A DNA stretch of 64,000 nucleotides from the NCBI GenBank assembly GCA_964490395.1, contig CAZBAS010000001.1, forward strand, positions 19,815 through 83,814. Direction: 5' to 3'. The stretch comes from an uncultured Candidatus Saccharibacteria bacterium (GTDB lineage Bacteria > Patescibacteriota > Doudnabacteria > UBA920). Positions 57,416 to 59,000 of this stretch are shown here, piece by piece (within the stretch, counting starts at the first letter, position 1; each line of letters opens with the position of its first letter). Under the pieces are notes generated by a model. The model did no database searches. It saw nothing but the letters and a program-made list of their open reading frames with translations, and was not told the DNA's origin. Position numbers and translations under genes: made by a program.

Positions 57416-58363
57416 ATGGAAGATGTAATACAAGTATCCAATCTAAAGAAAGAATACGAATTGTCTCGCGCAAATGAGTCTGGAGAAAAAGTATTTCCAG
57501 CGCTACGCGGTGTATCGTTTGAGGTGCACACAGGAGAAGTTTTTGGCATTCTTGGACCAAATGGTGCTGGTAAAACAACCACCCTTGAGATTATAGAAGG
57601 TATTCGCAGGCAAACCTCCGGCAGTGTTGTTGTGCTTGGGTTAGATAACATAGACAGTAGCCATGCTATCAAACGGCGTATAGGCGTGCAATTGCAAAGC
57701 AGTGAGTATTTGCCAGCGCTTACTCTCGTGGAGCTACTGGCCCTATTCGCTTCAATTTACGGAACCAAAAAAGACCCCATGCAGCTGTTGGGGTTTGTGG
57801 GTCTGCAAGAGAAGGCTACAGAGAAAGTAAAAAACTTATCTGGTGGCCAGAAACAGCGGTTTACTATAGCAACAAGTTTGGTGAACGATCCGGAAATTAT
57901 TTTTCTTGACGAACCTACTACGGGTCTAGACCCCCGTGCGCGTCACGATATGTGGGATCTTATTAAGCAAATAAACGCCCGTGGCACCACTGTTGTGTTG
58001 ACCACACACTATATGGAGGAGGCGGAGTTTTTGTGCAATCGTGTAGCTATTATGGACCATGGCCAGCTTTTAAAAATAGACGAGCCAAAACGGCTGATCA
58101 ATGACCTTGCACATACTACTCAAATTGCTTTTCTAACCAGCGCGGAGTTGCCAGCAGGTATATGGGCGTCTATTCAAGATAGTATTGAAAAAGTAATCAA
58201 TCAAAACCCTAAGGTTATATTGGAGGTAACATCACTCGATGTGGTTGGTCGGGTGGTAGATTTGCTAAAGCAGTGGAATATTGGTTTCAGCGGTTTTACC
58301 GTACGCACCGCAAGCCTTGAGGACGTGTATTTGGACTTAACCGGAAAAGTGTATGGAGAATAA
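57416..58363 (+). CDS. ABC transporter ATP-binding protein (ABC-2 type exporter ATPase).
   Basis: Walker A GPNGAGKTT, signature LSGGQKQR, Walker B IIFLDEPTTGLD. Confidence 0.9.
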   Translation: MEDVIQVSNLKKEYELSRANESGEKVFPALRGVSFEVHTGEVFGILGPNGAGKTTTLEIIEGIRRQTSGSVVVLGLDNIDSSHAIKRRIGVQLQSSEYLPALTLVELLALFASIYGTKKDPMQLLGFVGLQEKATEKVKNLSGGQKQRFTIATSLVNDPEIIFLDEPTTGLDPRARHDMWDLIKQINARGTTVVLTTHYMEEAEFLCNRVAIMDHGQLLKIDEPKRLINDLAHTTQIAFLTSAELPAGIWASIQDSIEKVINQNPKVILEVTSLDVVGRVVDLLKQWNIGFSGFTVRTASLEDVYLDLTGKVYGE

Positions 58364-59000
58364 TGCCCAAGGTTTGCGGAAGATTGTAATGGCTTTTGCA
58401 ATCGCTGCGTTCATTTTCTGGCTTTCCTATTATTTTATTTCATCGCAAGTGGTGAGCGTTATATTTCATAAAAATATACTATGCACATCCGTAGGGTTGA
58501 ATAGTAGTAAAGTTCAGAAATGTTATGACGTGCCGAATAAAATGGGCTTTGGTACCCCTTCAGAACTATACGAACCATTAGAAAACAAAGAAATTCCTGA
58601 AGATGTTGTGGCTAGTAATTTCTTTTTCTTTAGCCATATGGGCTTGGGTGCGGCTGTGTTGTTATCCAGTTTAGTGCTCCGCCGCTTGAACTCAAGTGGT
58701 GGGCGGAATGCTGCGGCGCAAGAACCTGGCGGCTATGAAGCAACTATTTCTCTAAGAACTACAGAAGAAGAGGGGAGGCATGCACCATTTTTTAGTGGGT
58801 ATGCAGCGGAGATATATACTGAAGGAGAATTGGTACCTGTTATATTCACGCTTACCAATAGAGAAATGGTTTCGCCGGGGGAGATTGCTGAGGTGGTTAT
58901 GAGGATAAACGCCCAATCGAACCTTGGTATGGGTCAAGAATTTGAAATTCAAGACCACGGGCACATAATCGGTAGTGGTACTATTACTAAAATTTTATAA
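58353..59000 (+). CDS. Membrane-anchored protein whose C-terminal ~90 aa resemble EF-Tu domain 3, inserted between the ABC ATPase and permease genes.
   Basis: N-terminal TM ([18 protein letters not shown]). The C-terminus [88 protein letters not shown] aligns with EF-Tu [89 protein letters not shown]. Overlaps the upstream gene by 11 nt and shares its ATG/stop with the permease gene. Confidence 0.6.
   Translation: [215 protein letters not shown]

What the first reader, a model, noticed from the sequence alone, without database searches (positions are those of the whole stretch)
58353..59000. Orphan EF-Tu domain-3-like module on a membrane anchor, translationally coupled inside an ABC transporter operon
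The C-terminal 90 aa of this 215-aa protein align residue-by-residue with EF-Tu domain 3: [13 protein letters not shown] vs [20 protein letters not shown].AEVV vs [13 protein letters not shown], and [14 protein letters not shown] vs [14 protein letters not shown]. The N-terminal 120 aa have a TM helix and no similarity to the EF-Tu G domain or domain 2. The gene overlaps the ABC ATPase stop by 11 nt and shares an ATG/stop junction with the ABC-2 permease, so it is an integral operon member. To my knowledge EF-Tu domain 3 is not known outside translational GTPases. A membrane-tethered, GTPase-less copy could be a decoy or adaptor, for example for EF-Ts, tRNA, or an EF-Tu-targeting toxin. It could instead be an exapted fragment of a duplicated tuf gene. 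The residue corresponding to the EF-Tu threonine in GRTVGAG is Ile here (GHIIGSG).
Basis: partly seen in the sequence, partly recalled or inferred. Interest (0 to 1): 0.85.

Follow-up and report, generated by a model that had tools for sequence, protein, structure and literature searches.

The report
Membrane-anchored orphan EF-Tu domain 3
A small membrane protein in an uncultivated Patescibacteria genome really does carry a stand-alone, highly diverged copy of the last domain of translation factor EF-Tu, but it is a rare, lineage-specific gene in a changeable slot of a transporter operon, and GTPase-less copies of this domain turn out to be recurrent in other bacteria.

Summary
ORF 58353-59000 (215 aa) ends in a significant EF-Tu domain 3: Pfam PF03143 scores 41.1 bits against a cutoff of 27, and the model superposes on EF-Tu D3 at about 1 Å. 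There is no G domain and no domain 2.

The N-terminal half is a two-helix membrane hairpin, not one helix. Its external loop carries two conserved cysteines, and D3 is predicted to face the cytoplasm.

The gene is functional. A 55%-identical ortholog sits at the same position in a related Doudnabacteria-like lineage, with saturated dS and D3 dN/dS of about 0.2.

It is very rare: three clusters among 5.8 billion. Its slot is plastic. Sister lineages have an unrelated 186-aa gene or only a hairpin spacer there, so it is not an obligate transporter subunit.

Two of EF-Tu's three T-stem recognition residues, and the residues at kirromycin-resistance positions of the D1/D3 interface, are replaced by ortholog-conserved derived residues. 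That argues against a tRNA or EF-Tu-partner decoy.

The uniqueness claim fails. GTPase-less D3 or D2-D3 modules also occur fused to TIR-WD40, kinase, LRR, lipoprotein and Zn-ribbon/TM parts.

My best reading is an exapted cytoplasmic docking barrel on an optional membrane accessory. Interest is moderate.

The parts
57416..58363 (+). ABC transporter ATP-binding subunit (315 aa), DrrA/NodI-like, first gene of the operon
   Evidence: Pfam ABC_tran 1e-28. TIGR01188 drrA scores 251.7 bits, below its cutoff of 312. It is 315 aa and 72-81% identical among the five closest lineages, with or without the D3 gene; the outgroup L014 is 349 aa and 68-71% identical.
58353..59000 (+). TM-hairpin/EF-Tu-D3 chimeric protein (215 aa), the finding
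   Evidence: ORF. The NCBI gene call is 215 aa. Ortholog L010:3500-4135 is 55.5% identical, with dN 0.36 and saturated dS.
58383..58463 (+). Hydrophobic helix 1 (about residues 11-37), preceded by a basic N-flank (R9, K10)
   Evidence: Kyte-Doolittle 19-mer values up to 2.21. AF2 helix at 5-30. 52% identical to the ortholog.
58464..58607 (+). Predicted external loop (residues 38-85) with two conserved Cys (C44, C57) and a [13 protein letters not shown] motif. This is the most conserved part of the protein.
   Evidence: 83% identity and dN 0.10 against the ortholog. The same Cys pair and a TPxELYxPLxNxEIP motif occur in P0008, which lacks D3.
58608..58682 (+). Hydrophobic helix 2 (about residues 86-110), ending in R110-R111 (RRL)
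   Evidence: Kyte-Doolittle up to 1.84. AF2 helix at 94-112. The positive-inside count favours N-in/C-in topology (inference from the sequences).
58683..58730 (+). Unconserved linker (residues 111-126)
   Evidence: 25% identity, dN 1.39 and a 3-residue indel against the ortholog. pLDDT below 50 at 117-121.
58731..58997 (+). EF-Tu domain-3 beta-barrel (residues 127-215), predicted cytoplasmic
   Evidence: PF03143 at 41.1 bits. pLDDT about 97 and rmsd about 1 Å to EF-Tu D3. 51% identical to the ortholog with dN 0.41. 37% identical to the EF-Tu-like consensus, with 23 ortholog-shared derived residues.
59006..59746 (+). ABC-2 type permease (246 aa from ATG 59006; 248 aa from ATG 59000)
   Evidence: Pfam ABC2_membrane 1.8e-20. 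331 homologs, with the named ones labelled Candidatus Doudnabacteria or Patescibacteria. Orthologs start at MSF/MAF.
59745..59777 (.). Bidirectional terminator-like hairpin closing the operon
   Evidence: 15-bp stem flanked by A and T runs. No terminator-like site lies between the three genes, and promoter-like hits are at chance level.

Best explanation
SHOWN
- The ORF encodes a real protein kept by selection. It is confined to a small clade of Candidatus Doudnabacteria-like Patescibacteria.
- The protein is a chimera. Its first part is a two-helix membrane hairpin whose connecting loop, with two conserved cysteines, is the most conserved part. That hairpin module also exists alone in another genome.
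- An unconserved linker joins the hairpin to a highly diverged copy of EF-Tu domain 3.
- The gene sits in a plastic junction between the ATPase and permease genes of a conserved ABC-2 exporter operon. It is packed so tightly that it must be co-transcribed and probably co-translated with them.
- The D3 has lost two of EF-Tu's three T-stem recognition residues and several arginines. The residues at kirromycin-resistance positions of the D1/D3 interface are also replaced. In their place is a derived surface conserved between the orthologs (xGExVPx, QEFEIQDxxHxxGSG).

INFERRED
- Topology is N-in, loop-out, C-in, so the D3 barrel hangs on the cytoplasmic face of the membrane.
- The barrel no longer works as a translation-factor part. 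It serves as a docking module for a new partner.
- The most likely partner is the co-expressed exporter, through its cytoplasmic ATPase. That would make the protein an optional accessory or regulatory subunit coupling an external, probably disulfide-bonded loop to the transporter.
For: Domain identity and fold.

Hairpin and conserved Cys loop.

Selection:
- Intact 211-aa ortholog in L010 and L011 in the same position.
- dS is saturated (at least 1.9).
- dN is 0.10 for the loop and 0.41 for D3, against 1.39 for the linker. The ATPase is 0.20 and the permease 0.12.

Independent assemblies carry the gene.

Tight coupling in both lineages:
- The window has an 11-nt overlap upstream and a 5-nt gap or TAATG junction downstream.
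- L010 has a 1-nt gap after a GAGG upstream and a 6-nt gap downstream.
- There is no internal terminator.

Remodelled EF-Tu surfaces:
- Q341/T350/E390 (PMC3239215) correspond to E153/P162/D201 here and N/P/D in the ortholog.
- R373, R377 and R381 (E. coli numbering) correspond to E, Q, H in both orthologs, and A375 to E in both.
- 23 shared derived positions in all.
Against: - The transporter does not need this protein. Five of seven related lineages lack it, and the closest ones have the same 315-aa ATPase.
- The same slot holds an unrelated soluble 186-aa protein in a sister lineage.
- The hairpin homolog P0008 is not next to any ABC transporter.
- Topology rests on hydropathy and the positive-inside rule only.
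- No physical interaction could be modelled.
- Only two orthologous sequences exist, so surface conservation is weakly resolved.
- The AF2 alignment was dominated by EF-Tu sequences, so the fold match is not independent of the sequence match.
Confidence: 0.42

Rival explanations
1. Operon hitch-hiker. The gene is an independent small membrane protein that landed in a permissive intercistronic junction and only borrows the exporter's transcription. Its function lies in the conserved external Cys loop (envelope sensing or binding), with D3 as a cytoplasmic output or anchoring domain unrelated to the transporter.
For: - The slot is plastic. It holds TM-D3 in two lineages, an unrelated 186-aa protein in one, and 90-96 nt hairpin-forming spacers or a 1-nt gap in four.
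- The closest ATPases are 315 aa regardless of the slot's content.
- Hairpin homolog P0008 lies in an unrelated neighbourhood.
- The loop is more conserved than D3.
- The gene's GC content is slightly lower than its neighbours' in both genomes, 41.8-42.0% against 44.6-47.6%.
Against: - Insertion exactly between two subunits that need balanced expression, retained with tight coupling in two lineages whose synonymous sites are saturated, is also what an accessory subunit would show.
- No alternative partner or pathway is suggested by the neighbourhood.
Confidence: 0.3
2. First reader's idea. The protein is a membrane-tethered decoy or adaptor that binds a natural EF-Tu D3 ligand (aa-tRNA, EF-Ts, the EF-Tu G domain) or an EF-Tu-targeting toxin, phage factor or antibiotic, possibly handing it to the exporter.
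For: - The D3 fold and core motifs are retained (GR..PFF, EMV.PG, G.G).
- EF-Tu is a frequent target or cofactor of toxins and phages; PDB holds complexes with CdiA-CT, Tse6 and Qβ replicase.
- Elsewhere, D2-D3 modules are fused to TIR-WD40 and kinase domains, which is compatible with a decoy logic.
Against: - T-stem recognition residues and several arginines are replaced.
- The residues at kirromycin-resistance positions of the D1/D3 interface are changed, including A375 to E in both orthologs (residue roles are from textbook knowledge).
- Thr382 is Ile/Val.
- The CdiA-CT(NC101) toxin binds domain 2 exclusively (PMC5737660 abstract), and domain 2 is absent here.
- D3 evolves 2-4 times faster than its neighbours, which is unlike a mimic of one of the most conserved proteins known.
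- No PADLOC hit.
Confidence: 0.1
3. The topology is reversed or the D3 is exported. The barrel would then be displayed outside the cell, like the Zn-ribbon/TM- or lipoprotein-anchored D3 proteins of low-GC bacteria, and would act as a surface binding module (professionalised EF-Tu 'moonlighting').
For: - About 30 of the top 150 representative hits are GTPase-less D3 or D2-D3 proteins with an N-terminal signal anchor, lipobox or Zn-ribbon+TM, which would place D3 outside.
- Surface EF-Tu binding to host ligands is documented (PMC5593925, PMC6822514).
Against: - Here there are two hydrophobic segments, with basic residues before helix 1 and after helix 2 (R110-R111, RRL). The same pattern holds in the ortholog and in P0008.
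- The conserved Cys pair lies in the loop.
- The window D3 is no closer to those proteins (33-43% identity) than to EF-Tu itself.
Confidence: 0.07
4. Decaying remnant of a tuf duplication, or a spurious ORF with no function.
For: Very narrow distribution. Faster evolution than its neighbours.
Against: - Intact ORFs of 215 and 211 aa are kept in two lineages whose synonymous sites are saturated.
- dN/dS is about 0.2 for D3 and lower for the loop, while the linker is unconstrained.
- The barrel is confidently folded.
- No frameshift or stop is present.
Confidence: 0.03

Closest known systems
Domain 3 of bacterial EF-Tu (Pfam PF03143 GTP_EFTU_D3)
   Same: Significant profile match over nearly the whole domain. 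Beta-barrel fold at about 1 Å rmsd. The core motifs GR(H)xPFF, EMVxPG and GxG are retained.
   Different: - No G domain and no domain 2.
- Only 37% identity to an EF-Tu-like consensus.
- T-stem recognition residues, three arginines and residues at kirromycin-resistance positions of the D1/D3 interface are replaced.
- It is fused to a membrane hairpin.
- The NCBIfam EF-Tu equivalog scores 44 bits against a cutoff of 522.
GTPase-less EF-Tu D3 or D2-D3 fusion proteins found here. They are unnamed in the databases and I found no paper on them: Zn-ribbon+TM+D3 (P0004), Zn-ribbon+TM+D2-D3 (P0012/P0273), lipobox+D3 (P0087), SPFH+D3 (P0099), BspA-LRR+D2-D3 (P0019), kinase+D2-D3 (Ktedonobacter racemifer, L006), TIR+WD40+D2-D3 (L004).
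   Same: EF-Tu C-terminal module without the GTPase, recruited into a new architecture and often membrane-anchored.
   Different: - Those modules are much closer to canonical EF-Tu: Pfam D3 scores are 56-150 bits against 41 here, and the GGRHTPFF motif is intact.
- Most anchored ones have a single N-terminal anchor, which would put D3 outside the cell.
- None of the three whose gene neighbourhoods I looked up (L019, L020/L021, L022) is next to an ABC transporter.
- No shared N-terminal module, so they probably arose independently.
Small accessory subunits encoded inside ABC transporter operons, for example MlaB of MlaFEDB (own knowledge, not tested here)
   Same: A small protein encoded between or next to the ATPase and permease genes, with a cytoplasmic domain that could dock on the ATPase.
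   Different: No sequence or fold relation. Such accessories are conserved with their transporters, whereas this one is present in only 2 of 7 related lineages.
DrrAB/NodIJ-type ABC-2 exporters
   Same: The flanking genes match ABC_tran and ABC2_membrane, with best subfamily similarity to DrrA/DrrB.
   Different: The scores fall below the equivalog and subfamily cutoffs, so the substrate is unknown. These systems are normally two-gene units, as in most relatives here.

Membership tests
Pfam GTP_EFTU_D3 (PF03143) domain family | Profile score above the curated gathering threshold over most of the domain | tested here: met
   41.1 bits against 27, profile positions 8-105 of 106. The ortholog scores 42.1 bits.
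Pfam GTP_EFTU_D3 (PF03143) domain family | EF-Tu domain-3 beta-barrel fold | tested here: met
   AF2 pLDDT about 97 for residues 127-215. Foldseek rmsd 0.8-1.2 Å over 90 columns to many EF-Tu chains. Caveat: the alignment was rich in EF-Tu sequences.
Elongation factor Tu / translational GTPase (TIGR00485) | GTP-binding domain (PF00009) and domain 2 (PF03144) preceding D3; whole-protein score above the equivalog cutoff | tested here: not met
   No G-domain or D2 hit. TIGR00485 scores 44.4 bits against a cutoff of 522.4.
Elongation factor Tu / translational GTPase (TIGR00485) | Conserved T-stem recognition residues (Q341, T350, E390 in T. thermophilus numbering; the paper reports 13 of 15 thermodynamically important interface residues as >99% conserved and the other two as >80%; PMC3239215) | tested here: not met
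   The window has E153, P162, D201 and the ortholog has N, P, D. R373, R377 and R381 (E. coli numbering) are E, Q, H.
Obligate accessory subunit of the ABC-2 exporter | Co-occurrence with the transporter across orthologous operons | tested here: not met
   Present in the window/L001 and L010/L011/L002 lineages only. Absent from L012/13, L014, L018 and L023. Replaced by an unrelated gene in L015-17.
Obligate accessory subunit of the ABC-2 exporter | Physical contact with the ATPase or permease | not testable with these tools
   Only single-chain structure prediction was available.
tuf pseudogene or decaying fragment | Frameshifts or stops, dN/dS near 1, no conserved synteny | tested here: not met
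   Intact ORFs in two lineages, conserved position, dN 0.36 against saturated dS.
Extracytoplasmic anchored D3 proteins (Zn-ribbon/TM or lipobox + D3, seen) | Single N-terminal anchor or signal placing D3 outside; near-canonical GGRHTPFF D3 | tested here: not met
   Two hydrophobic segments with basic flanks on the N and C sides. Motif is [16 protein letters not shown]. 33-43% identity. Topology itself was not tested experimentally.
Known anti-phage defence proteins (PADLOC-DB) | Match to a defence-system model | tested here: not met
   No hit for the TM-D3 protein or the permease. The ATPase gives only generic ABC/AAA similarities.

The most novel reading that the evidence does not exclude
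The tethered D3 is a molecular decoy or sensor for a factor that attacks EF-Tu, such as a phage protein, an interbacterial toxin or an antibiotic. It would then be one instance of a wider, unrecognised class of 'integrated EF-Tu decoys' that also includes the TIR-WD40-D2D3 and kinase-D2D3 proteins found here. In this reading the membrane hairpin places the decoy where such factors enter, next to an exporter that could remove them.
Probability: 0.1. Interest if true: 0.75.

Novelty: new variant of a known kind. Interest (0 to 1): 0.42.

Why it matters
- It is a clean example of a fragment of one of the most conserved proteins in biology being cut loose, fused to a membrane module and kept by selection for a different job, in a genome-reduced Patescibacteria lineage.
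- It corrects the assumption that EF-Tu domain 3 occurs only inside GTPases. The searches uncovered many GTPase-less D3 or D2-D3 architectures: surface-anchored, kinase-linked and TIR-WD40-linked. I found no paper describing them in the literature I could search.
- Those proteins could bear on EF-Tu surface 'moonlighting' and on immune sensing of EF-Tu-targeting factors.
- For the window gene itself the impact is limited. It is confined to two known lineages and its partner is unknown.

Tried and rejected
Searches for relatives
- The single-protein word-index search found only the query itself.
- The single-protein GTDB scan found nothing.
- A metagenome scan with the two-sequence alignment found nothing, even though the ortholog comes from a JGI sample.
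- A profile search of 5.8 billion clusters returned only P0001, P0002 and P0008.
- tblastn against the phage collection gave only host tuf carry-over.
- PADLOC gave no hit for the protein.

Searches inside the window and loci
- No tuf or D3 paralog lies in the window, so the genome's own tuf could not be compared and the origin (own tuf or transfer) stays open.
- tblastn of the protein against the 'empty-slot' loci found no remnant.
- The L001 strain (99% identical) has no substitutions in the operon, so it gives no polymorphism data.

Ideas dropped
- Net charge of D3 as an argument against RNA binding. Canonical-like D3s are also net negative, -2 to -5 against -8 and -3 here.
- The 186-aa slot occupant of L015-17 as a resistance nucleotidyltransferase. 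It has only a sub-threshold NTP_transf_2 motif (E 0.014) and no PDB or NCBIfam match.

Literature and tools
- Literature searches for orphan or membrane EF-Tu D3 proteins found nothing relevant.
- The afdb50 fold library was unavailable.
- The N-terminal half of the model is low-confidence (pLDDT 50-85), so it was not used for fold search.
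Full report
**1. What is in the sequence**

ORF 58353-59000 (+) encodes 215 aa. It overlaps the stop of a DrrA/NodI-like ABC ATPase gene (57416-58363) by 11 nt. 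It ends at a TAATG junction with an ABC-2 permease gene. Orthologs and gene callers start the permease at ATG 59006, which leaves a 5-nt gap.

The three genes lie between a hairpin after the upstream glycosidase gene, seen by eye in the sequence at about 57331-57365, and a bidirectional terminator-like hairpin at 59745-59777. No terminator-like site separates them, and promoter-like matches are at chance level.

The start codon is ambiguous. NCBI aa (P0271). A Logan assembly of a 99%-identical strain aa from M13. The ortholog's conserved basic N-flank (GLKR against GLRK) favours the longer form.

**2. The domain claim is right**

- Residues 128-214 match Pfam GTP_EFTU_D3 at E 2.4e-10. The score is 41.1 bits against a gathering cutoff of 27, nearly end to end.
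- NCBIfam EF-Tu models hit only their last ~90 positions. TIGR00485 scores 44 bits against a cutoff of 522.
- phmmer against PDB returns 59 EF-Tu chains, the best at E 2.7e-9.
- An AF2 model has pLDDT of about 97 for residues 127-215. It superposes on EF-Tu D3 at 0.8-1.2 Å over 90 columns. The alignment behind the model was dominated by EF-Tu-like sequences, so this is not independent evidence.
- There is no G domain and no domain 2.
- No tuf paralog lies in the window.

**3. The N-terminal half is a hairpin, not a single helix**

- Two hydrophobic segments are present, at about residues 11-37 and 86-110. AF2 predicts helices at 5-30 and 94-112.
- Basic residues precede helix 1 (R9, K10), and R110-R111 (RRL) close helix 2. 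The same pattern holds in the ortholog and in P0008.
- By the positive-inside rule this gives N-in, loop-out, C-in, so D3 would face the cytoplasm. This is an inference and was not tested.
- The 48-residue loop carries two conserved cysteines and a [13 protein letters not shown] motif.

**4. Relatives**

The exhaustive HMMER search of 1.84 billion representatives gave 319 hits at E ≤ 1e-3. Nearly all hit through D3 alone. Only two are true relatives:

- *P0002.* This is the C-terminal fragment of a 211-aa ortholog. The full-length gene is at L010:3500-4135 and L011:1269-1904, from JGI samples.
- *P0008.* This 154-aa protein shares the hairpin and Cys loop (35% identity) but has a third helix in place of D3. 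It lies in an unrelated neighbourhood.

A profile search of 5.8 billion clusters found only these three clusters. The protein is therefore a fusion of a pre-existing rare membrane module with a D3 copy.

**5. Organism and synteny**

Permease homologs are abundant (331 at E ≤ 1e-10). The few that carry a source name are labelled Candidatus Doudnabacteria or Patescibacteria.

The neighbourhood is largely conserved where the contigs reach: UvrB, GH1, ATPase, slot, permease, a short TsaB-like ORF, Mur ligase. The slot between the ATPase and permease genes varies:

| Lineage | Permease identity to window | Slot content |
|---|---|---|
| Window / L001 | 100% | TM-D3 (215 aa) |
| L010 / L011 / L002 | 83% | TM-D3 ortholog (211 aa) |
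| L015-L017 | 82% | Unrelated soluble 186-aa protein with only a sub-threshold nucleotidyltransferase motif |
| L018 | 79% | 96-nt spacer |
| L012 / L013 | 76% | 90-nt spacer |
| L023 | 76% | 93-nt spacer |
| L014 | 72% | 1-nt gap |

- Two of the three 90-96 nt spacers fold into long hairpins, with z-scores of -4.7 and -6.8 and unrelated sequences. The third scores -1.1.
- No remnant of the gene is present in the empty slots.
- The ATPase is 315 aa in all six closer lineages; only the outgroup L014 has a 349-aa form.
- The pairwise identities suggest that the window, L010 and L017 lineages form one group and that L018 and L012 form another.
- The junction is therefore a plastic insertion site. 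The D3 protein cannot be an obligate subunit of the transporter.

**6. Selection**

Window against L010:

| Region | aa identity | dN |
|---|---|---|
| ATPase | 77% | 0.20 |
| Permease | 83% | 0.12 |
| TM-D3, whole | 55.5% | 0.36 |
| External loop | 83% | 0.10 |
| D3 | 51% | 0.41 |
| Linker | 25% | 1.39 |

- dS is saturated: at least 1.9 by NG86 where it could be computed, and higher by ML.
- Intact reading frames at this divergence, plus the domain-wise pattern, show purifying selection on the loop and on D3.
- This rules out a decaying tuf fragment.
- D3 nevertheless evolves 2-4 times faster than its neighbours.
- GC content is slightly lower than the neighbours' in both genomes.

**7. What the D3 has kept and lost**

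Of 32 columns that are at least 80% conserved among the EF-Tu-like sequences, 16 are kept in both orthologs. These are mostly core or turn residues: G141, R142, P145, F146, F147, Y150, L167, E171-V173, P175, G176, F197, G207, G209.

Across all 89 D3 columns, 23 positions carry a derived residue shared by both orthologs. They concentrate in two motifs:

- RTTDVTG has become xGExVPx.
- [15 protein letters not shown] has become QEFEIQDxxHxxGSG.

The three residues that read the tRNA T-stem (Q341, T350, E390 in T. thermophilus numbering; PMC3239215) map to E153, P162, D201 here and to N, P, D in the ortholog.

From my own knowledge of EF-Tu:

- Kirromycin-resistance positions at the D1/D3 interface (E. 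coli G316, Q329, A375) are E, E, E in the window and G, N, E in the ortholog.
- The Doc-phosphorylated Thr382 position is Ile or Val.

So the surfaces EF-Tu uses for tRNA and for its own G domain have been rebuilt and then conserved. That points to a new partner. Net charge is not informative, because canonical-like D3s are also acidic.

**8. Mechanism**

*Shown.* This is a selected chimeric hairpin-D3 protein. It is co-packed with an ABC-2 exporter in a variable slot, and the EF-Tu-specific surfaces have been remodelled.

*Inferred.* D3 is cytoplasmic and acts as a docking barrel.

My ranking of the readings:

| Reading | Confidence |
|---|---|
| Optional accessory or regulator of the co-expressed exporter | about 0.4 |
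| Independent membrane protein that only borrows the operon's expression | about 0.3 |
| Decoy or adaptor for EF-Tu ligands or EF-Tu-targeting factors | about 0.1 |
| Outward-facing D3 | about 0.07 |
| Non-functional | about 0.03 |

The one EF-Tu-dependent toxin whose interface I checked, CdiA-CT(NC101), binds domain 2 only, and domain 2 is absent here (PMC5737660 abstract).

**9. The uniqueness claim fails**

About 30 of the top 150 representative hits are GTPase-less proteins that carry D3 or D2-D3 behind a Zn-ribbon+TM, an N/Q-rich region+TM, a signal anchor or a lipobox.

Pfam-verified architectures:

- DUF285/BspA-LRR + D2 + D3 (P0019).
- Lipobox + D3 (P0087).
- SPFH + D3 (P0099).
- Signal peptide + D2 + D3 (Bacteroidaceae, L008).
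- Zn-ribbon + protein kinase + D2 + D3 (Ktedonobacter racemifer DSM 44963, L006).
- TIR + WD40 + D2 + D3 (Thermoanaerobaculia MAG, L004).

The three members whose neighbourhoods I looked up are not next to ABC transporters. These modules are far closer to canonical EF-Tu than the window's D3 is. I found no paper on them. Documented surface 'moonlighting' of full-length EF-Tu (PMC5593925, PMC6822514) may be relevant to the outward-facing ones.

**10. Verdict**

The gene is a new architectural variant of a known domain, confined to two known lineages, with an unknown partner. Interest is moderate. The wider class of GTPase-less EF-Tu C-terminal modules is the more promising lead.

Noticed in passing
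L004:2707-6270 (Thermoanaerobaculia MAG, CAMYNM010000017.1): About 1,180-aa protein with a TIR_2 domain, WD40 beta-propellers and a C-terminal EF-Tu D2+D3 but no G domain. The architecture recalls an immune sensor with an 'integrated decoy' of a common phage or toxin target.
   Followed up: partly
L006:4513-6270 (Ktedonobacter racemifer DSM 44963, NZ_ADVG01000003.1): Zn-ribbon + Ser/Thr protein kinase + EF-Tu D2+D3 fusion without a G domain, in a cultured organism.
   Followed up: partly
P0004, P0005, P0006, P0009, P0010, P0012/P0273, P0015, P0017, P0019, P0087, P0099; loci L019, L020, L022, L008: A sizeable set of low-GC metagenomic proteins carry near-canonical EF-Tu D3 or D2-D3 behind a Zn-ribbon+TM, N/Q-rich+TM, lipobox, SPFH or BspA-LRR part, with D3 probably displayed outside the cell. 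One sits in the conserved cysS-mrnC-rlmB-sigH-secE-nusG-rplK region.
   Followed up: partly
L007:695-2074 (Nitrospina MAG): Full three-domain EF-Tu paralog preceded by a hydrophobic N-terminal segment that looks like a signal or anchor.
   Followed up: no
L015:1801-2361, L016:902-1462, L017:1000-1560: In a sister lineage the same ATPase/permease slot holds an unrelated soluble 186-aa protein. It overlaps the ATPase gene by 8 nt and has only a sub-threshold nucleotidyltransferase-like G-G-x(n)-D-x-D motif.
   Followed up: partly
L012:4908-5003, L018:3902-4003, L023:1084-1182: Where the slot is 'empty', the 90-96 nt ATPase-permease spacer forms a long imperfect hairpin built from short repeated motifs. 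The sequences are unrelated between lineages (z -4.7, -6.8, -1.1). They could be small palindromic insertions or an intercistronic RNA element.
   Followed up: partly
L003:5838-6302 (GCA_034680565.1, JAXOUH010028262.1): P0008 is the only homolog of the hairpin/Cys-loop module. It has a third TM helix in place of D3 and is followed by a 96-aa Cys/His-rich ORF and a type IV pilin-like gene.
   Followed up: partly
window 13044-23726 (+): Giant 3,560-aa ORF whose only Pfam match is a Peptidase_S74 domain (intramolecular chaperone of endosialidase or tail-fibre type) near residue 3157.
   Followed up: no
window 52679-57319 (+): 1,546-aa protein with a hydrophobic N-terminal segment and Big_7, GH39-like and F5/8 type C domains, immediately upstream of the operon. 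Related lineages have shorter ORFs of 652-683 aa at this position, one with a weak Big_7 match.
   Followed up: no
window 59769-60131 (-): Short (about 120 aa) ORF matching only a 41-residue piece of the TsaD/TsaB family. Unannotated 97-103 aa ORFs occupy the same position in relatives. It may be a truncated TsaB.
   Followed up: no
window 24111-25481, 35113-36762, 37730-40714: dnaA, a type II/IV secretion (pilus) ATPase and polA lie in the window, so it may be near the chromosomal replication origin.
   Followed up: no
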